Shown here: piece after piece, positions 13,149 through 20,285 of the stretch | Layout: each line of letters begins with the position of its first letter | Numbering within the stretch: the first letter of the stretch is position 1 | Origin: Asterionella formosa | Taxonomy: Eukaryota | DNA: 45,689 nucleotides | Reading direction: 5' to 3' | Assembly (NCBI GenBank): GCA_002256025.1 | Contig: NKIB01014224.1 | Location: forward strand, 1-45,689 | Notes under the pieces: model-generated | Seen by the model: the letters and a program-made list of their open reading frames with translations, nothing else | Told to the model about the DNA's origin: nothing | The model's database searches: none | Position numbers and translations under genes: made by a program

Positions 13149-14016
13149 CTACACGTCTGCGTCATCAGCAATGGAATTTAGATGCCCGTCAATTGACTCC
13201 TCCGACAAAACCATAAACTTGCCATTAACACCGCAAAGTGTTCCTACCTCAATTTCATTTCCACGGAAATCACTTCCCAAGACGCTCCCCAAGCAAGTGA
13301 TGGCACATCGAATGGCTTGATCCTGAGTATAATCTTTCATTTCATCCACTCGTTTTTCCAAAAAGTTCATAGCCTCTTGTTCCTTGGGCCCACTGGCAGT
13401 CGCAATGAAGGGCAGGTAGTGTCCTGCACAGTCCACTTTGTAGATCGTCGGACCATCTTCGTCATCTACACCGATCATTAGGGCAATGCAGGCCAGTGGT
13501 CGCATAGAGGCCGATTGTGTATTGACCTGAGCTAGATCCGCCATGCGCTTGGCCAGAACTTTGACAGGAGTCGAGTATCCATTGTCGAACTCCCACTTGG
13601 CGCCTTCGTAGCGCGCTCGTTGAACCAGAGCCTTCGAGTCTGCCATGACTCCCGTGACGCAGCAGCCGATCTTGCTGGTCAGGGAAAAAAGGTGAGAAAC
13701 GGAGTCAGCCTGCATCAATCGGTCCGGCACTTTCTTTTGAGTAACTAGCACGACGCTGTCCTTTCCCTTGACAGCAACGCCGGTAAGTCCACTGTTGGCA
13801 GCCTTGAATGCATATTCCATCTGGTAGAGGCGACCTTGCGGCGAAAAGATGGAAATGTGGTGATCATAATTGCTGCATTGTTGTTAGTTTACCAAAAAGG
13901 GGACGGTCAGATAGGTTTTGGTCCAATTCAAGTGATCTATGAAACGAATTGCAAACTGAAACTATGGGCATATTGTCTGCGATCTTCAGTTGGTTCACTT
14001 ACGAATCCCGACTCAT
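13149..14016 (-). CDS. PSMA6: Proteasome subunit alpha type-6 (alpha1); exons 14016-14003, 13872-13149
   Basis: Spliced N-terminus [29 protein letters not shown] is the alpha-subunit signature. QKKVPDRL and KEQEAMNFLEK are typical of alpha1. 130-nt GT-AG intron. Confidence 0.95.
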
Positions 14017-14202: not shown

Positions 14203-14846
14203 TGTACCAGGTACCGGAATGGTGGAATGGTGTACTGGTACCGATGTGAATGTAAGTTAGTACATACCACATGGTACATAGTGCCGGTAATTATAATGGC
14301 TACCTGCACATGATAGCCTGTTGTGGTGATAGCAAATCATTGCTAGCTCATCTTGTAGTATACCGGCAGTATAGTACCAGGTACTGGTACCTGGTACCCA
14401 GGGGTACCTGGTGCGATAACCTCGACTCTCAAGAACAATACCAATGCTCCTACATGGTATACCCTCCTGGTACGATCATTCATGCATGCCTCCTCCTGCT
14501 TCTCCAACATGATCATCAATCGAAGACTGCCGAAGGTTCCATAACGACAGGAACAGAACCGAGTCGGGTCGACTTTGACTCGACTTGTCCAGCAGGGTCG
14601 GATAAGTCAACTGCAAGGCGCGCCATTTTCGACCACACTGAACATGTACCGGTACCAGGGGTACTGTGCAATTGTGAATTAATTACCGGGTAGCTAACCG
14701 TACAGTGCTCAGCACGTATACCGATACCGGTATATACATTTAGTTAGTTAACATTACCGTAGACTATTGAAACGGAAAAACAGAAATTTAGCTATTACAT
14801 TACCTGCTATGATATTGTAGTTATACTGGTTGTACCTGGTACCTGG
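14203..14846. promoter_or_regulatory. Divergent promoter region PSMA6/MSH1 rich in (GGTACCW)n arrays
   Basis: Clusters such as gtaccaggtactggtacctggtacccaggggtacctgg (14372-14412), plus 14203-14243, 14646-14666 and 14833-14846. The regulatory role is inferred from position only. Confidence 0.5.
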
Positions 14847-15035
14847 AACTGCCGCTGGTAATCCCTGTAGCTATTTTTAAACCATATAAACCAATTAAAA
14901 AGCCTGTCGTTTTGTCTCTGCACACCTCCATCATTCGTTTCTAGTTTCGATGCAGAGTGATGTCCCAGCAACCCGCCGCAACTAATCTCATCATTTCTCT
15001 CAGCATTGACAGGCTAAAAAGGCTTTTGTTCACGC

Positions 15036-18000
15036 ATGATATTTCCTTTTCTATCCTTTTTCGGTACAGGCTCTCTTTTCCTGTGTTTCGTGCTGTCCTT
15101 GTCTGGGAAATCTCGCGCGCTTTCCACAATGCGGCGTATAGCAATTCGGCAATGCACAGTCCTCTACGCACAGAAGCGCAATAAAACTTCCTCGAAGCTA
15201 AGGCAAGTTCAGCAACAACTCACTCAACTCAATGGTGGCCAGGAGATCAACGTTATGTCGCCAAAACAAGTGTCGCAAGCTATTTTCAAAAGGTTTCAGT
15301 CTACGTCCAGACAAACGCTGCTAGAAGCATCGTTGGACGAGGCCTCGCTGGACGAGAAAGGAAGAGCCATGGCGAAGCTAGTATTGGAAATTCGTGATTT
15401 GAACAAGATTGAACACGAAGAGGAGCAGGTTGGGCTCGAAGATTCCCCAGAGACTGGCTTTGCGGACCACCGTGACACAGGCGAGCGGAAGCAGAAACAT
15501 GCGGTTTCCGAAATAGATCCACTAACGTCACTGAAATCATCGTATGAATCACATGTACAGTCACTTTTTCAAGGAAAGGCATCGAAAATTGATAAATATT
15601 GGAAGGATCCCATGCTCAAGCTCACCAAGCCATCTGCTCGTAACATTGTCTTACAGTTTGCCCCGGATTGTCCCATGGGGTACGACCCTCTGGCCACACC
15701 ACTCGGTACAATTAAATCAGGAACGACGACCGCGGGAAAGCAGGGATCGCTTTTACACTATTGTCGTGAGCAAAAATACCGTTATAGTCACTGTGTCGTT
15801 TTGACCAGAGTTGGTGACTTTTACGAAGCCTTTGGGGTAGACGCAGCCCTGCTTGTGGAGCACTGTGGCCTCAATCCAATGGGCGGCAGAGGTCGAGCAG
15901 GTTGCCCTGTTAGAAATGTACAGGCGACGCTAGACGATTTGACGCAAAGGGGATATTCTGTTGCTGTATTAGAAGAAGTCAGTGACACTGACAGTGAACG
16001 CGGACCTTCAATGAGCCCGCCCCGACTCAAGCCAAGAATGTTGGGTCAAATTGTCTCGCCTGCAAATCCAACTTATTTGCACGATTTGCTCTTGGAAGAC
16101 AATGCTGTCTTGTTCAATGCATCACCTTCGAGACCATATGTTGCTATTTTGTCCAAATTTAGTGGGGCGACTTACTTGGAGGTCAGTGTCGAAGAAAGAT
16201 CCGTCCGAGTAACAAGTGGCTTGACACCGGAAGCCGTATCGTGCAGATTGACGGCATACCCGCCTGCTGAACCCATCGTGTACGCTGGTACCACAAAACC
16301 TAATTTCAAAGTACGAACAGAAACAGTTCCACTTGCTTTGCTACCGGAAATGGAGCCCGAAAAAGGACTATTGATACAGCTATTGCAGAGAATTGACGGG
16401 GAAGACCTTGCAACCGAGGACTTTCGATGGGTCTCCCAGGAGCAGAAAGGTGTCAATCCCTTGTACGTCGAAACGGCAACTCAGCTGGGTTTAATGAATG
16501 ATCCTAGTATTCCGTCTCTTATTCATTACATTTTGCCTGATTTCGCTCCTGCTGCCTCGAAACGATTCTTGCGCAAGTGGTTGTTGATCCCTCCACCTGT
16601 TCCGGTTAGTGAAAGTATGGCCACAGTTGTAAAATATATGAAAGAAAAAGGAGGAGCTCTCCCTCCCTTATTGGTGCCTCCTGTAGGGAAGATCGTTGCA
16701 CTGTTGCGAGCAGGGCAAGCAAGTGCGGAGGTGTACGGCAATTTACTTTCGGCCATCGACTCAACACTTCATTCTCTCACTGCATTGAAGCAACTGCACA
16801 ATCCCTTCATGCTTCTTTTACAACACGAAAGCGGGATAGCAAGCACCGTTGAATCGTTGGAAGAGCGATGCATACAAGCATCTGCAGTCATGGAAAGAAT
16901 CGTTAGCCCTATTCACCATGTCCGAGGACATGGAGAGGACGCCGTTTCTAACTACGGTGACTTAATACCAAGGGCTTTTTTTGAACGGAACGAAGGGAAT
17001 TGGAGGGGCAGAGTAAAATCTAGCGCTGCGCCAAAGGCTTACCAACGTGTAGACGAAACGGCATTGACCTTAGCTGTTGCCGTCGCCAGGGATTTGTGGG
17101 GATTTCAAGAGCCACAGATCAGCAGAAACATTGAGGCTGCGAAGAACAAGAAGTCGCCCATTCTTCAGGATATCTTTAACAATTGTTTTGCTGTGAAGGA
17201 CATGTCTAGTGCAGGCATGGAATCAGCGTACATTCATCCTAAAGATCGCTTTGGAAAACTTATCCGGAATCGGTACACAACAGACAGTGTTCAATCTGCG
17301 TTATCCGAGTATGTGGAAGCTTGCGACAAAGCTTGTCGGGAAGTAACCTCGGTTTTAGCAATGCTCAGTCAAAGAATTTGCGAAGAAGGACACCTCCCGG
17401 CAATTGTCCAAGCTGCACATTTCAACCTTATCCTCTCAACTGCGTCCCATCACGCTGCTAAGGCGAATGGGCTAGGCTGGAGCATGGCAACAACCTATGA
17501 CTGTGCATCAGTGTCACCACTGGCAGATATAGCTGGAAAATTTGTCGATATGTTTCCGTACTGGATGGATAGATCCGAGGCTGTTTCGAATTCGTTTGAG
17601 GTTGAAGGCATGTTTCTTTTGACAGCCCCCAATATGAGTGGCAAGAGCACGTTAATGAGATCAACTGCAGCAGCGGCTTTGTTAACGAATTGCGGTCTCT
17701 GTGCACCACTTAGTCCTGAGTCAGCAATTCGGCGATATGATAACATTTTTGTTCGTGGGGCATCTGCAGACGTGCCGACCGAAAACAAATCTGCCTTTGG
17801 AGCAGAAATGGTCGACATTGCGTCTCTTCTACGGTCAGCAGGGCCAGATTCACTGGTTTTCGTGGATGAGCTTGGAAGAGGAACGTCGCCACGGGATGGG
17901 GCTTGCATTGCTGCCGCTGTACTAGAATCGATGTCAGAAGCTGGAGTCAGTGGAATTTTTGCTACTCACCTTCATGATATCCTTGACCTTCCCCTTAATG

Positions 18001-18644
18001 GCTGGGATCGGATACACCTGAAGCGAATGGCTATCGAAACCGACCACTTGACTGATGCCAACTACACATGGACATACCGAATCGAAGATGGAGTGTGCAA
18101 AGACAGTTTAGCTTTGGTGACTGCTGCGAGGTTTGGGCTCCCGACAAACATATTGAGCCGTGCTGCTTCCTTTACTGCCATTTTGGATCATTCTCGAAAC
18201 GACATCGCTTGCCTTGATGGATGTAAATGCCCCGAGATTGGGCAAAATTTTCTACCAAGAGCAAGCCTTGCAAACGATACACATGGACTAAGCGAAGCGT
18301 GCAAAGTCGTTGGTTGCAGTGATACAGCCACTATGATTCCGCCACAATGGCAATCGCCCGCGTCACTGGAGGGCACTTCCTGCGTCTATATCCTTGAATT
18401 ACCCAATATGCCAAGTTGTAGGTACTACGTCGGAGAAACTGACTCGATTTCAAAACGTTTGCGACAACACCGAGCCAAGGGTGGGGCGTGGTCAGAGGCA
18501 ACCGCTGCGGTCTTTCCCATTTCTGGTGGCAAAACTCAAGCTCGAAACATGGAAAGTTTGGCAATTCAGCGACTAGCTCAAGCGGGGTTCCAATTGATCA
18601 GTGTTTCAGATGGTAGGTCAATCCGTCCAGCTGGTCGGCAATAA
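15036..18644 (+). CDS. MSH1: Plant-type organellar MutS homolog 1 (MutS I ... ATPase + C-terminal GIY-YIG endonuclease), intronless, 1202 aa
   Basis: Mismatch-recognition motif RVGDFYEAFGVDAALLVEHCGLNPMGG..AGCPVRNVQATLDDLT; Walker A TAPNMSGKST; FVDELGRGTS; IFATHLH; C-terminal VYILEL..YYVGETDSISKRLRQHR. Hydrophobic then basic N-terminal presequence. Confidence 0.92.
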   Translation: MIFPFLSFFGTGSLFLCFVLSLSGKSRALSTMRRIAIRQCTVLYAQKRNKTSSKLRQVQQQLTQLNGGQEINVMSPKQVSQAIFKRFQSTSRQTLLEASLDEASLDEKGRAMAKLVLEIRDLNKIEHEEEQVGLEDSPETGFADHRDTGERKQKHAVSEIDPLTSLKSSYESHVQSLFQGKASKIDKYWKDPMLKLTKPSARNIVLQFAPDCPMGYDPLATPLGTIKSGTTTAGKQGSLLHYCREQKYRYSHCVVLTRVGDFYEAFGVDAALLVEHCGLNPMGGRGRAGCPVRNVQATLDDLTQRGYSVAVLEEVSDTDSERGPSMSPPRLKPRMLGQIVSPANPTYLHDLLLEDNAVLFNASPSRPYVAILSKFSGATYLEVSVEERSVRVTSGLTPEAVSCRLTAYPPAEPIVYAGTTKPNFKVRTETVPLALLPEMEPEKGLLIQLLQRIDGEDLATEDFRWVSQEQKGVNPLYVETATQLGLMNDPSIPSLIHYILPDFAPAASKRFLRKWLLIPPPVPVSESMATVVKYMKEKGGALPPLLVPPVGKIVALLRAGQASAEVYGNLLSAIDSTLHSLTALKQLHNPFMLLLQHESGIASTVESLEERCIQASAVMERIVSPIHHVRGHGEDAVSNYGDLIPRAFFERNEGNWRGRVKSSAAPKAYQRVDETALTLAVAVARDLWGFQEPQISRNIEAAKNKKSPILQDIFNNCFAVKDMSSAGMESAYIHPKDRFGKLIRNRYTTDSVQSALSEYVEACDKACREVTSVLAMLSQRICEEGHLPAIVQAAHFNLILSTASHHAAKANGLGWSMATTYDCASVSPLADIAGKFVDMFPYWMDRSEAVSNSFEVEGMFLLTAPNMSGKSTLMRSTAAAALLTNCGLCAPLSPESAIRRYDNIFVRGASADVPTENKSAFGAEMVDIASLLRSAGPDSLVFVDELGRGTSPRDGACIAAAVLESMSEAGVSGIFATHLHDILDLPLNGWDRIHLKRMAIETDHLTDANYTWTYRIEDGVCKDSLALVTAARFGLPTNILSRAASFTAILDHSRNDIACLDGCKCPEIGQNFLPRASLANDTHGLSEACKVVGCSDTATMIPPQWQSPASLEGTSCVYILELPNMPSCRYYVGETDSISKRLRQHRAKGGAWSEATAAVFPISGGKTQARNMESLAIQRLAQAGFQLISVSDGRSIRPAGRQ

Positions 18645-19043: not shown

Positions 19044-20285
19044 CTAATGCTTCTTGGCTGGAGGCTCCCACTTCAAAAAATCTGGACGGCAAAAAAGAAA
19101 ATCGTCGTCTGATTTCTTGTAATTATCCAGGATTTGCTGTTGCACGTAAATCACGTGCTGCGATCGAAAGCATCGGATCATCCCCAAACTCTGGAGCGTT
19201 GAGATAATGTCCTCTTGCTTGATTCCTGTCTGCTGTGACATTGACTTGATGGTTAAATCCTGCGAAGGTCCTTTTTTGAGCAAGCCGAACAAAACGTGTG
19301 TCCAATAGGACCGATAGGAAATTTTTCCCAAATCTGAAAGCGGCTTTTCCGGAGACCCCGTCGTGTCTTCTCGTTTGGTCAGCTCATAGCTCAGGGAAAT
19401 GATGAATTTGCCATAGCCACACTTTTGGTATTGAGGAAAAGTCAGAATGCAAGCCAGGTTGTAATCTTCCGCAGATACTTTTTCCTTACTGAAGTATCCC
19501 ACAATGTGCGCTCCGTACTCGTCGACTTGACAAATAATGTAGAATAAGAAGGGATCTGTGTCAAAGTATAAAGTCTTGTGGTCAAGGAACAGCTTGGCCA
19601 GCAAACACAAATTTTGGCAGTAAATCTTGCTGTCTTTCCCGTCCACTTCAAATGCGGAAATATTATCATAGCGGTATATCTCGTTACCTGGTGGCTTGCG
19701 TGATTCACATAATGCCTTGTGCCTGTGAAAAGTCCTCACTGATTTCATGTATTTCAAACAGTATTCACAAATGAACAGAGTGTCGCAATTGGCGTAGTCT
19801 TCGGGATACGGCGAAAAGTACCAAGCTTCCACTTCCCACCCTCCCATGATGATTTTACTTATATTCTTGACCTTAGTTATTTCTTCATGCTCTCGTTCCA
19901 GTTCCGCTAGTGTTGGGTCTCCCGACGCATGCCAATTGCCACCCGTAAGCCGAACGGGGGCATGCTCTGTTGCCACTCGCCGTTGCGGCCTGGAAGTAGT
20001 GTCTTCTTGCTGAGGTTCCAGTTCTTCTGATTTCGCTCGATATGTATCCAGTAAAAACTTGCTGAACGGAATCCACTCATCTAGGCGCCGATCCTGCGAT
20101 TCATAGTGGACGTAATACTCAAATTCATCCTTGCCCTTGGTCTCCTCTGGTTTGCGCTTTTTAGGAACTCTGCGCTCAATGACTTTGCCCATTAACGTTT
20201 CGAGGCCATTTCGCCACCGAACCATGCATCTATCGCCAATATTTAGTGCTGAAGGCACCAGTGGTGCTACTCCCGTTGTCGTCAT
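19044..20285 (-). CDS. MYST-family histone acetyltransferase (Esa1/Tip60/MOF type) with an N-terminal Tudor-knot chromodomain
   Basis: YYVHYESQDRRLDEW; WYFSPYP; C2HC finger CEYCLKY..H..C; CQNLCLLAKLFLDHKTLYFD; GYFSKEK; NLACILTFPQYQKCGYGKF; GSPEKPLSDLG. Confidence 0.96.
   Translation of the reverse strand: MTTTGVAPLVPSALNIGDRCMVRWRNGLETLMGKVIERRVPKKRKPEETKGKDEFEYYVHYESQDRRLDEWIPFSKFLLDTYRAKSEELEPQQEDTTSRPQRRVATEHAPVRLTGGNWHASGDPTLAELEREHEEITKVKNISKIIMGGWEVEAWYFSPYPEDYANCDTLFICEYCLKYMKSVRTFHRHKALCESRKPPGNEIYRYDNISAFEVDGKDSKIYCQNLCLLAKLFLDHKTLYFDTDPFLFYIICQVDEYGAHIVGYFSKEKVSAEDYNLACILTFPQYQKCGYGKFIISLSYELTKREDTTGSPEKPLSDLGKISYRSYWTHVLFGLLKKGPSQDLTIKSMSQQTGIKQEDIISTLQSLGMIRCFRSQHVIYVQQQILDNYKKSDDDFLFCRPDFLKWEPPAKKH

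What the first reader, a model, noticed from the sequence alone, without database searches (positions are those of the whole stretch)
15195..15415. MSH1 carries an N-terminal family-A DNA polymerase thumb-like module
Seen: after the presequence and ~110 aa before MutS domain I, the ORF reads LRQVQQQLTQLNGGQEINVMSPKQVSQAIFKRFQSTSRQTLLEASLD...RAMAKLVLEIRDLNKI. Established: the Pol I thumb reads roughly L..LE..A..IAGEEFNL.S.KQL..ILF...STSEEVLEELA...PL.K.ILEYR.L.KL, and it grips duplex DNA. The blocks N-x-x-S-P-K-Q, S-T-S-x-x-x-L and L-V-L-E-x-R-x-L-x-K line up in order. No palm, fingers or exonuclease motifs are present. Land-plant MSH1, as I know it, has only MutS + GIY-YIG. Inference: an isolated polymerase thumb was captured as an extra DNA- or primer-terminus-binding or replisome-docking module, giving a thumb-MutS-endonuclease organellar repair enzyme. 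I am not aware of this architecture having been described.
Basis: partly seen in the sequence, partly recalled or inferred. Interest (0 to 1): 0.85.

Follow-up and report, generated by a model that had tools for sequence, protein, structure and literature searches.

The report
Polymerase thumb module on diatom MSH1
A diatom organelle DNA-repair enzyme (MSH1) really does carry at its front end a small DNA-gripping piece derived from a DNA polymerase, an arrangement absent from land-plant MSH1 and apparently not yet described.

Summary
The 1202-aa ORF at 15036-18644 (+) is a plant-type MSH1 (MutS I, MutS V, GIY-YIG). Its residues ~42-133 are a true homologue of the family-A DNA polymerase thumb. 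Pfam DNA_pol_A matches profile positions 6-90 only (E 1e-7, just under the curated cut-off). A profile search of PDB gives E 6e-6 to Bst Pol I. The AlphaFold model (pLDDT 86-98) superposes on Klenow, Bst, Taq, Pol theta and Pol nu thumbs. In an unbiased scan of 48,161 chains, the nine best were all family-A polymerases. No palm, fingers or exonuclease is present.

A ~30-residue disordered linker separates the thumb from the MSH1 core. RNA-library contigs cover the start codon, thumb and MutS without a break. The thumb occurs in 69 of 79 diatom-type MSH1 proteins; the other ten are short at the N-terminus. It is absent from 3 of 3 land-plant and 1 of 1 apicomplexan MSH1.

New here: the same short-tipped "orphan thumb" sits upstream of a 5'-3' exonuclease in a second, probably diatom, family. 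Function is inferred: most likely a tethered duplex-DNA backbone grip, since the Pol I phosphate-contact Asn/Ser are invariant. I found no published description. I rate it a new variant of a known kind.

The parts
15036..18644 (+). Intron-less ORF of 1202 aa (stop included): plant-type MSH1 with an added N-terminal thumb
   Evidence: ORF list. Pfam MutS_I, MutS_V, GIY-YIG and a partial DNA_pol_A. Nearest named homologues are diatom proteins and, more distantly, land-plant MSH1.
15036..15158 (+). Presequence region (aa 1-41). It has a hydrophobic signal-peptide-like start (M1) and a second in-frame Met (M32, nt 15129) that opens an Arg-rich stretch
   Evidence: Read from the translation. A similar two-Met pattern is seen in several homologues. 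No targeting predictor was available, so targeting is inferred.
15159..15434 (+). Orphan family-A polymerase thumb module (aa 42-133). The helices correspond to H (aa 42-65), H1 (76-84), H2 (92-100) and I (107-133)
   Evidence: Pfam DNA_pol_A matches aa 46-127 to profile 6-90/381. AF2 models have pLDDT 86 and 96-98 over this part. Structural matches are to Klenow 552-641, Bst 500-590, KlenTaq 456-548 and Pol theta 2099-2212.
15249..15269 (+). N-x-x-S-P-K-Q motif (N72...Q78) at the start of helix H1. By inference N72 and S75 are equivalent to Klenow N579 and S582
   Evidence: N and S are invariant in 35/35 MSH1 thumbs, 45/45 exonuclease thumbs and 8/8 polymerases. A review passage lists KF N579 and S582 as phosphate-backbone contacts (PMC10520511). 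The residue equivalence is my own count along.
15300..15308 (+). S-T-S motif (S89-S91) at the start of helix H2. By inference T90 is equivalent to Klenow T609. The 8-13-residue basic tip loop of Pol I that precedes this motif is missing
   Evidence: hmmalign: 7 of 8 genuine polymerases have 8-13 extra residues here and the window has none. S-T is conserved in 22-23/35 MSH1, 41-43/45 exonuclease and 8/8 polymerase rows.
15441..15527 (+). Disordered, poorly conserved linker (aa 136-164)
   Evidence: pLDDT is below 50 for model residues 105-133. The distance from thumb end to the FYE motif varies from 120 to 341 aa among homologues. Linkers in homologues are low-complexity.
15540..15650 (+). Three conserved helices ahead of MutS domain I (aa 169-205, including Y/W-W-K-x-P...K/R-P-S). 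This part is shared with land-plant MSH1 and belongs to the MSH1 core, not the thumb
   Evidence: pLDDT 94-97. Alignment consensus. Land-plant N-termini show the WWKE...KKPS equivalent directly after their presequence.
15768..16067 (+). MutS domain I (aa 245-344) with the mismatch-binding G-D-F-Y-E motif (F262-E264, nt 15819-15827)
   Evidence: Pfam PF01624, E 5.4e-12, 46.4 bits, above the cut-off of 20.6. F262, Y263 and E264 are invariant in 14 sequences.
17616..18179 (+). MutS domain V ATPase (aa 861-1048) with the Walker A motif P-N-M-S-G-K-S-T
   Evidence: Pfam PF00488, E 2.2e-38, 132.5 bits. Columns are invariant.
18381..18500 (+). [quoted passage not shown]
   Evidence: Pfam PF01541, E 3.4e-4, 21.3 bits, just under the cut-off of 22.6. 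Homologues P0004, P0032, P0041, P0045 and P0046 pass it. Y1131, V1132, G1133, E1134, R1141 and H1145 are invariant.

Best explanation
SHOWN. The gene encodes a diatom-type, plant-like MSH1 (MutS I + MutS V + GIY-YIG). Its N-terminus carries an independently folding ~90-residue helical module (aa 42-133) that is homologous to the thumb subdomain of family-A DNA polymerases. It has no palm, fingers or exonuclease. A disordered linker joins it to the MSH1 core. The module is general in diatom MSH1 and absent from the land-plant and apicomplexan MSH1 examined. A sister version of it sits upstream of a Pol I-type 5'-3' exonuclease in a second, probably diatom, protein family.

INFERRED (mechanism). 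The module works as a flexibly tethered, sequence-independent grip on the sugar-phosphate backbone of duplex DNA. It uses the two helix N-termini (N-x-x-S-P-K-Q and S-T-S) that Pol I places across the minor groove. This would raise the local concentration or residence time of the MSH1 dimer on organellar DNA. In the exonuclease family it would hold the duplex next to a nick or flap, as the polymerase domain does for the 5' nuclease in Pol I.

INFERRED (origin). One 'orphan thumb' arose from a Pol I-like gene. It lost the basic tip loop and was then shared between the exonuclease gene and MSH1 by domain shuffling in the diatom lineage.
For: Homology:
- Pfam E 9.7e-8 to profile positions 6-90 only.
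- PDB profile search, E 5.9e-6 to Bst Pol I.
- AF2 model pLDDT 86 and 96-98 over the thumb.
- Z 10-11, rmsd 1.5-1.9 A over 78 of 87 residues on polymerase thumbs.
- The top 9 of 48,161 chains are all family-A polymerases.

Separate tethered domain:
- pLDDT is below 50 for aa 136-164.
- Linker length varies from 120 to 341 aa.

Real, expressed fusion:
- The ORF is continuous.
- RNA-library contigs from 4 runs in 2 studies span 14756/14872/14889/14897 to 16400 with no joint.

Conservation and distribution:
- 69 of 79 FYE-bearing diatom-type MSH1 carry the thumb.
- 15 of 16 diatom-labelled entries carry it.
- 0 of 3 land plants and 0 of 1 Cyclospora carry it.

DNA-contact logic:
- The N and S of N-x-x-S are invariant in 35/35 MSH1, 45/45 exonuclease and 8/8 polymerase thumbs.
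- A review passage lists Klenow N579, S582, T609 and E611 among residues coordinating the DNA phosphate backbone (PMC10520511).

Shared origin:
- Of 126 profile hits, 34 are MSH1-type, 45 are thumb-then-5'-3'-exonuclease and 8 are genuine polymerases.
- MSH1 and exonuclease thumbs share an extra residue (L-N-x-G). They lack the 8-13-residue tip insert found in 7 of 8 polymerases.
- On the tree, MSH1 thumbs are one clade (SH-aLRT 97). Polymerases are split from MSH1 + exonuclease thumbs at support 91.
Against: - No DNA-binding test was possible. The tools fold no protein-DNA complexes.
- The Pfam score (31.8 bits) is below the curated cut-off (34.3). Foldseek E-values were all 0.09 or higher.
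- Z of about 10 for an all-helical module lies in the range the aligner's own notes call possibly 'a common arrangement'. Here the sequence evidence carries the homology.
- The basic tip loop, which in Pol I is part of the DNA-contacting thumb tip, is deleted.
- The S-T motif is kept in only 22-23 of 35 MSH1 thumbs.
- An isolated thumb is only part of the Pol I DNA cleft and may bind weakly.
- The residue equivalences to Klenow are my own count, not a tool output.
- The tree rests on 79 columns. Its outgroup is 8 polymerases picked by their likeness to the query profile, and the forks that place MSH1 within the exonuclease grade have support of only 84-91.
- 'Diatom' for the exonuclease family rests on one ESM-Atlas cluster label.
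Confidence: 0.55

Rival explanations
1. The thumb is a protein-protein docking module. It recruits MSH1, and the 5'-3' exonuclease, to a common partner such as the organellar replicative polymerase, SSB or a nucleoid scaffold, and does not bind DNA itself.
For: - Two different repair nucleases carry the same module on a flexible tether, as expected for a shared recruitment tag.
- The basic DNA-contacting tip loop is deleted.
- In Arabidopsis the thumb-less OEX1 showed yeast two-hybrid interaction with POL1A/POL1B (10.1101/2024.11.05.621957 passage). Coupling of such nucleases to the polymerase is therefore biologically plausible.
Against: - The residues most strictly conserved across MSH1, exonuclease and true polymerase thumbs are the N and S that contact DNA phosphates in Klenow. 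A pure protein-binding role would not require them.
- No partner is known.
- No complex prediction was run, because no candidate partner sequence from this organism was available.
Confidence: 0.25
2. The module is a structural spacer, a dimerising coiled coil or an evolutionary vestige. It would be a left-over of a dismantled Pol I-like gene that persists without a specific DNA or partner function.
For: - Helices H and I form an antiparallel coiled coil (PMC10520511 passage; models).
- The tip is variable: some MSH1 thumbs carry 10-17-residue inserts.
- The exonuclease family looks like two Pol I pieces in permuted order.
Against: - The module is kept across pennate and centric diatoms, with 25 invariant positions among five sequences at 36-68% identity.
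- N and S are invariant across 88 thumbs.
- It is present in 69 of 79 MSH1 proteins, and the ten exceptions are N-terminally short models. A vestige would be expected to decay or be lost repeatedly.
Confidence: 0.12
3. The likeness is chance, or the fusion is a gene-model or assembly artefact. For example, an upstream polymerase remnant might be read through into MSH1, or the true start might lie downstream.
For: - The Pfam score is under the gathering cut-off. Foldseek E-values are weak.
- P0001, a 99%-identical predicted protein, starts at the Met inside the module.
- Contigs cannot prove a transcript's 5' end (notes).
Against: - Concordant sequence and structure evidence all points to one subdomain of one family.
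- The same architecture occurs in dozens of independently assembled homologues.
- There is one continuous ORF.
- RNA-library contigs of two studies begin 139-280 nt upstream of the first ATG and cross the module without a joint.
Confidence: 0.03

Closest known systems
Thumb subdomain of bacterial DNA polymerase I and other family-A polymerases (Klenow, Bst, Taq, Pol theta, Pol nu, T7)
   Same: - It has the same four-helix layout: a long helix, two short helices and a long helix.
- It superposes on Klenow 552-641, Bst 500-590 and KlenTaq 456-548 at rmsd 1.5-1.9 A.
- It shares N-x-x-S-P-K-Q, S-T-S and L-x-Y-R motifs.
   Different: - It stands alone, with no 3'-5' exonuclease, palm or fingers.
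- It has one extra residue in the H-H1 turn and lacks the 8-13-residue tip loop present in 7 of 8 polymerases compared.
- The H2-I connection is 6-7 residues longer in MSH1.
- It is joined to a MutS protein.
Land-plant MSH1 (MutS + GIY-YIG, dual-targeted organellar repair protein)
   Same: - It has MutS I with F-Y-E, MutS V, a C-terminal GIY-YIG and the conserved W-K-E...P-S helices just before domain I.
- Land-plant MSH1 proteins are retrieved as homologues at 28% identity over 80-84% of a diatom query.
   Different: Land-plant proteins go from the presequence straight into the core, with F-Y-E at aa 116-140. They have no thumb: 0 of 3, and no DNA_pol_A hit at E <= 0.1 for the one scanned with Pfam. 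The window protein has F-Y-E at aa 262.
Viridiplantae MutS1 with an N-terminal DPD1 exonuclease fusion (described in PMC12292046)
   Same: This is another organellar MutS-family protein that gained an N-terminal accessory domain related to polymerase-associated machinery (passages seen).
   Different: It belongs to a different MutS subfamily. The accessory domain is a different one (a DnaQ-like 3'-5' exonuclease, which is catalytic). No thumb is mentioned in that paper (0 occurrences of 'thumb').
Plant organellar 5'-3' exonucleases OEX1/OEX2 and red-algal plastid PolI
   Same: The second thumb-bearing family has a Pol I-type 5'-3' exonuclease (PF02739 + PF01367, E down to 1e-50; NCBIfam Pol I models E 3.5e-99 for P0114). 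OEX1/2 and the red-algal PolI N-terminus have the same kind of domain (passages).
   Different: - OEX1/2 are described with only a targeting extension ahead of the nuclease ('thumb' 0 occurrences).
- Red-algal PolI has the order exonuclease then polymerase.
- The diatom-type proteins have the order thumb then exonuclease, with no palm or fingers.

Membership tests
Family-A DNA polymerase (Pfam PF00476 DNA_pol_A), as an enzyme | Thumb subdomain (helices H, H1, H2, I) | tested here: met
   Pfam match to profile positions 6-90. Structural superposition on polymerase thumbs.
Family-A DNA polymerase (Pfam PF00476 DNA_pol_A), as an enzyme | Score at or above Pfam's curated gathering cut-off (34.3 bits) | tested here: not met
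   25.8 bits for the whole protein and 31.8 bits for the module alone. This is expected when only 85 of 381 profile positions exist.
Family-A DNA polymerase (Pfam PF00476 DNA_pol_A), as an enzyme | Palm with catalytic carboxylates and fingers with the O-helix (profile positions ~100-381) | tested here: not met
   There is only one DNA_pol_A stretch, aa 46-127, matching positions 6-90. The thumb is followed by a disordered linker and then MutS.
Family-A DNA polymerase (Pfam PF00476 DNA_pol_A), as an enzyme | 3'-5' exonuclease (or its inactive fold) preceding the thumb | tested here: not met
   No PF01612 or PF22619 hit at E <= 10. Only about 41 residues precede the thumb.
Plant-type MSH1 (MutS with C-terminal GIY-YIG) | MutS domain I with the F-x-E mismatch motif | tested here: met
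   PF01624, 46.4 bits against a cut-off of 20.6. G-D-F-Y-E lies at aa 260-264 and is invariant in the alignment.
Plant-type MSH1 (MutS with C-terminal GIY-YIG) | MutS domain V ATPase with Walker A | tested here: met
   PF00488, 132.5 bits against a cut-off of 30.2.
Plant-type MSH1 (MutS with C-terminal GIY-YIG) | [quoted passage not shown] | tested here: met
   PF01541 at aa 1116-1155, E 3.4e-4, 21.3 bits, marginally below the cut-off of 22.6. Aligned homologues pass it, with P0032 at 27.2 and P0046 at 27.6 bits. The Y-V-G-E...R...H columns are invariant.
Plant-type MSH1 (MutS with C-terminal GIY-YIG) | Closer to land-plant MSH1 than to canonical MutS1 | tested here: met
   With the diatom-type P0041 as query, land-plant MSH1 scored E 1e-77 to 1e-90, against about 1e-27 for canonical MutS. 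This was tested on a homologue, not on the window protein itself.
Plant-type MSH1 (MutS with C-terminal GIY-YIG) | Targeting to mitochondria and/or plastids | not testable with these tools
   Only presequence-like features were read by eye. No predictor or localisation data were available.
Orphan short-tipped thumb module (group proposed here: diatom MSH1 + thumb-5'-3'-exonuclease proteins) | Extra residue in the L-N-x-G turn, no 8-13-residue tip loop, F-G after helix H1, and no adjoining palm | tested here: met
   The window row in hmmalign has the extra residue and no tip insert. It falls inside the MSH1 thumb clade, SH-aLRT 97. The window has K, not G, at the F-G position.

The most novel reading that the evidence does not exclude
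Diatoms have taken a Pol I-like enzyme apart and reused its thumb as a portable DNA-grip domain. The same orphan thumb is fused to both the mismatch-directed nuclease MSH1 and a Pol I-type 5'-3' exonuclease/flap endonuclease. It would direct both enzymes to the same DNA structure, namely the duplex flanking a nick, gap or primer end in organellar DNA. That would physically couple mismatch-triggered cutting with 5' resection or flap processing. This would be a repair-coupling logic with no counterpart described in land plants.
Probability: 0.25. Interest if true: 0.75.

Novelty: new variant of a known kind. Interest (0 to 1): 0.6.

Why it matters
Plant-type MSH1 is the enzyme credited with the very low mutation rates of plant organelle genomes. 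Its role outside land plants is called an open question in the passages I read (10.1101/2020.02.13.947598).

A conserved extra DNA-polymerase-derived domain in the diatom enzyme says that the diatom version engages DNA, or the replication machinery, differently. It gives a precise, small target (aa 42-133; N72, S75, T90) for deletion and point-mutation tests in transformable diatoms.

The finding also shows that a polymerase thumb can exist and be selected as a free-standing domain, and that it has been reused on at least two repair nucleases. This is of interest for domain evolution and for engineering small non-specific duplex-DNA-binding tags.

Tried and rejected
- Own genome. None is held for this window. 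I could not look for the thumb-exonuclease gene or the organellar polymerase in the same organism.
Organism names come only from source labels and from ESM-Atlas cluster labels.
- Scans for viral and bacterial plant-type MSH1. Viral contigs gave 45 loci and genome contigs gave 3 loci. All were at 25-41% identity and matched mostly query residues ~245-1060. The one I opened (L001) is an ordinary bacterial mutS-mutL operon. The other 47 loci were not opened. Whether the viral or bacterial MSH1 reported in the literature carry a thumb therefore stays open.
- Foldseek against PDB gave no match at E <= 0.001 (best 0.094). Even so, every row shown, to rank 50, was a family-A polymerase.
- The ESM Atlas for the MSH1 lists only three Pfam families per cluster. 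It could not show the share of members with PF00476.
- A SAP-like motif in P0248, a thumb-less diatom-type MSH1 model. I read one by eye, but Pfam gave no SAP hit at E <= 0.1, so I dropped the idea.
- Possible palm remnant after the MSH1 thumb. In three homologues the Pfam DNA_pol_A match runs on to profile positions 118-137, but the sequence there is low-complexity linker. I do not read it as a palm remnant. In the exonuclease family a short conserved stretch (glycine, a hydrophobic residue, then H/Y and V) follows the thumb and may be such a remnant. This was not tested.
- A third architecture among the 39 unclassified profile hits. By motif, 14 look like MSH1 N-terminal fragments, 9 end at the start of the 5'-3' exonuclease and 16 are too short to tell. 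No third architecture was seen.
- The search of earlier findings returned nothing for this genome.
- Complex prediction was not used. No binding between named proteins is claimed and no partner sequence from this organism was available.
- RNA contigs show presence and continuity only. They do not show the transcript start, strand or level.
Full report
WHAT IS THERE. The window holds one uninterrupted ORF, 15036-18644 on the + strand, of 1202 aa. Pfam finds four families:
- MutS domain I, aa 245-344, 46.4 bits.
- MutS domain V, aa 861-1048, 132.5 bits.
- A GIY-YIG core, aa 1116-1155, 21.3 bits, just under its cut-off.
- One stretch of DNA_pol_A, aa 46-127, matching profile positions 6-90 of 381.

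The neighbouring genes are a proteasome subunit and a MYST histone acetyltransferase, so this is a nuclear eukaryotic locus. The nearest named homologues are diatom proteins.

IS THE THUMB LIKENESS REAL?

Sequence evidence:
- The module alone hits DNA_pol_A at E 9.7e-8. The score is 31.8 bits against a curated cut-off of 34.3.
- All 5 of 5 aligned homologous modules hit the same family.
- NCBIfam's Pol I model matches aa 40-126 to positions 510-599 of 890, E 9e-4.
- A single-sequence PDB search gave only E 0.025. A profile of five modules reached E 5.9e-6 on Bst Pol I chains.

Structure evidence:
- AlphaFold2 on the five-sequence alignment gave mean pLDDT 86.3 and the layout long helix, short helix, short helix, long helix.
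- Foldseek E-values were weak (best 0.094). Even so, every row shown, to rank 50, was a family-A polymerase.
- Re-alignment gave Z 10-11, rmsd 1.5-1.9 A and 78 of 87 residues. The matches fall on Bst 500-590, KlenTaq 456-548, Pol theta 2099-2212 and Pol nu 450-548.
- Z of about 10 is not decisive for helical proteins, so I ran the Foldseek-independent scan of 48,161 PDB representatives. Ranks 1-9 were all family-A polymerases: Klenow 552-641, Pol nu, T7, G20c, Aquifex, M. smegmatis, the apicoplast polymerase, a Taq variant and DpoZ. They scored Z 7.5-9.6 with 75-86 residues aligned.
- The best unrelated chain scored Z 6.1 with 53 residues aligned.

Sequence and fold thus point independently to one subdomain of one family. 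Nothing resembling palm, fingers or an exonuclease is present.

ANATOMY.
- A second model covers aa 32-360 and used a 31-sequence alignment (mean pLDDT 84.2, pTM 0.59). It puts the thumb at aa 42-133 with pLDDT 96-98.
- Next comes a stretch with pLDDT below 50 (aa 136-164).
- Then come three confident helices (aa 169-205), then MutS domain I.
- Those three helices carry the W-K-x-P...P-S motif. Land-plant MSH1 shows the same motif directly after its presequence. They therefore belong to the MSH1 core.
- Among homologues the distance from thumb end to the F-Y-E motif ranges from 120 to 341 aa, median 175. The intervening sequence is low-complexity.
- The thumb is thus an independent domain on a flexible tether.

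IS THE FUSION EXPRESSED AS ONE PIECE? Contigs of four RNA libraries from two studies lie on 14700-16400. Each is a single piece that starts at 14756, 14872, 14889 or 14897, which is 139-280 nt upstream of the first ATG. Each runs past 16400 with no joint. Contigs cannot prove a 5' end or exclude DNA carry-over.

DISTRIBUTION.
- A search with the C-terminal 363 aa found 669 proteins at E <= 1e-10 and listed the best 120. All named ones are diatoms except one labelled Alexandrium.
- 79 of the 120 contain the G-x-F-Y-E motif. Of these, 67 have the thumb with the narrow profile and 69 with a broader one.
- The ten without a thumb have only 5-203 residues before F-Y-E. They look like N-terminally short gene models.
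- Among entries with diatom labels, plus the Alexandrium-labelled one, 15 of 16 have the thumb.
- A search with a divergent member (P0041) brought in three land-plant MSH1 proteins, Cyclospora and a GC-rich unnamed relative. None has a thumb, even with all HMMER filters off and E up to 100.
- Pfam gave no DNA_pol_A hit at E <= 0.1 for the three of these that I scanned.
- The land-plant F-Y-E motif sits at aa 116-140, against aa 262 in the window.
- I could not obtain haptophyte, cryptophyte, viral or bacterial plant-type MSH1. The contig scans returned canonical MutS only, and I opened just one locus.

A SECOND HOME FOR THE SAME MODULE. The thumb profile was searched against 1.84 billion cluster representatives and gave 126 hits at E <= 1e-3. 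Pfam sorts them as follows:
- 34 are MSH1-type.
- 45 have the thumb 30-120 residues upstream of a Pol I-type 5'-3' exonuclease (PF02739 with or without PF01367).
- 8 are genuine polymerases, ranked at E 2.5e-6 or weaker.
- 39 are fragments. By motif, 14 look MSH1-like, 9 end at the start of the exonuclease and 16 are undetermined.

In the exonuclease proteins, everything ahead of the thumb is presequence and low-complexity sequence. Their nearest ESM-Atlas cluster has 62 members, all Eukaryota, most commonly Bacillariophyta. The domain order, thumb then exonuclease, is the reverse of bacterial and red-algal Pol I.

Aligned to one model, the thumbs show these features:
- MSH1 and exonuclease thumbs share an extra residue in the L-N-x-G turn.
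- They lack the 8-13-residue tip loop present in 7 of 8 polymerases.

A quick maximum-likelihood tree used 88 thumbs and 79 columns. It makes the 35 MSH1 thumbs one clade (SH-aLRT 97). It separates the 8 polymerases from all orphan thumbs (support 91). It leaves the exonuclease thumbs as a grade around the MSH1 clade. With so few columns and a biased outgroup this is only a lead. It favours one origin of an orphan thumb followed by sharing between the two genes.

HOW IT PROBABLY WORKS (inference).
- Across all 88 thumbs, the N and S of N-x-x-S-P-K-Q are invariant. The Q is almost invariant, and the S-T of the second motif is common.
- A review passage lists Klenow N579, S582, T609 and E611 among the residues that coordinate the DNA phosphate backbone (PMC10520511).
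- I counted along the structural alignment (model 1-87 on Klenow 552-641), allowing for the indels. By this count N72, S75 and T90 of the window protein fall on N579, S582 and T609. This equivalence is my own count, not a tool output.
- The thumb tip of family-A enzymes 'interacts with the primer template'. [quoted passage not shown]
- I therefore think the module is a small, sequence-independent grip on duplex DNA, tethered to each subunit of the MSH1 dimer.
- The loss of the basic tip loop argues against a specialised primer-terminus sensor. It leaves room for the rival that the module docks on a protein partner instead.
- In the exonuclease family the thumb could hold the duplex beside a nick or flap, as the polymerase domain does for the 5' nuclease in Pol I.

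WHAT IS KNOWN. I read passages only, never whole texts, and opened no supplements.
- Recent MSH1 papers describe plant MSH1 as a MutS module plus GIY-YIG and do not contain the word 'thumb' (10.64898/2026.06.11.731605; PMC12292046).
- The Wu et al. preprint reports plant-like MSH1 in stramenopiles and other groups, without any mention of 'N-terminal' or 'polymerase domain'.
- The OEX1 preprint does not mention a thumb fused to a nuclease. Nor do the family-A reclassification (PMC10201439), the organellar family-A encyclopedia (PMC10877234) or the organellar replication review (PMC4166229).
- Six full-text searches surfaced no such description.
- Automated annotation already flags PF00476 on some of these proteins (precomputed Pfam columns). 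The signal is therefore visible in databases, though apparently not discussed in print.

VERDICT. The function remains inferred. The 'capture' story should be widened to a portable orphan thumb shared with a 5'-3' exonuclease. I rate it a new variant of a known kind, with interest 0.6.

Noticed in passing
not in the window; proteins P0047-P0125 (45 representatives listed, e.g. P0051, P0079, P0114): A second family, probably from diatoms, has the order presequence/low-complexity region, orphan thumb, then Pol I-type 5'-3' exonuclease. That is the reverse of the domain order in Pol I. Several of its thumbs pass Pfam's DNA_pol_A cut-off (e.g. P0085 at 42.5 bits, P0103 at 46.8 bits). A short conserved stretch (glycine, a hydrophobic residue, then H/Y and V) after the thumb may be a remnant of the first palm strand.
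   Followed up: partly
window 15036-15170 (M1 at 15036, M32 at 15129): There are two in-frame start codons. The first opens a hydrophobic signal-peptide-like stretch and the second an Arg-rich stretch like a mitochondrial presequence. Several homologues show the same pattern, some with an A-F motif after the hydrophobic part (P0002, P0181, P0190, P0208, P0215, P0242). This would fit dual plastid/mitochondrion targeting by alternative initiation. No predictor was run.
   Followed up: partly
window 16307: RNA-library contigs of runs X2 and X6 carry an in-frame AAA insertion behind 16307. It matches the extra Lys in the 99%-identical protein P0001. Twelve single-base differences among runs were also listed. 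These look like strain or allele variation.
   Followed up: no
window 14719-14846: Separate high-depth RNA contigs in X2 and X6 (word depth up to 677) touch only 14719-14736 and 14823-14846. They have loose ends on both sides, and one letter stands in place of the 86 bases between (tables 5c, 7, 8). This may be a repeat or a fragment of a small RNA or mobile element upstream of the MSH1 promoter. It is unexplained.
   Followed up: no
window 13149-13820 (-) and 19044-20285 (-): The flanking genes are a proteasome subunit (PF00227) and a MYST-family histone acetyltransferase with Tudor-knot and zf-MYST domains. The X1 contig is 4593 nt, and 3064 nt of it lie beyond 16400. If colinear, it would run past the MSH1 stop into the 3' part of the convergent acetyltransferase gene. 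I did not lay it to check.
   Followed up: no
proteins P0052, P0094, P0095, P0238 (homologues, not in the window): Some MSH1 thumbs have regained long inserts, 10-17 residues or more, at the tip and in the H2-I loop. The tip is therefore a hot spot for length change, as it is in real family-A polymerases.
   Followed up: no
protein P0063 (409 aa, not in the window): This is the only genuine polymerase among the 126 hits with a short thumb tip like the orphan thumbs. Its DNA_pol_A match is 358 bits over profile positions 9-376, and its tip insert is 0 residues. Its origin is unknown. It could be a lead to the donor lineage.
   Followed up: no
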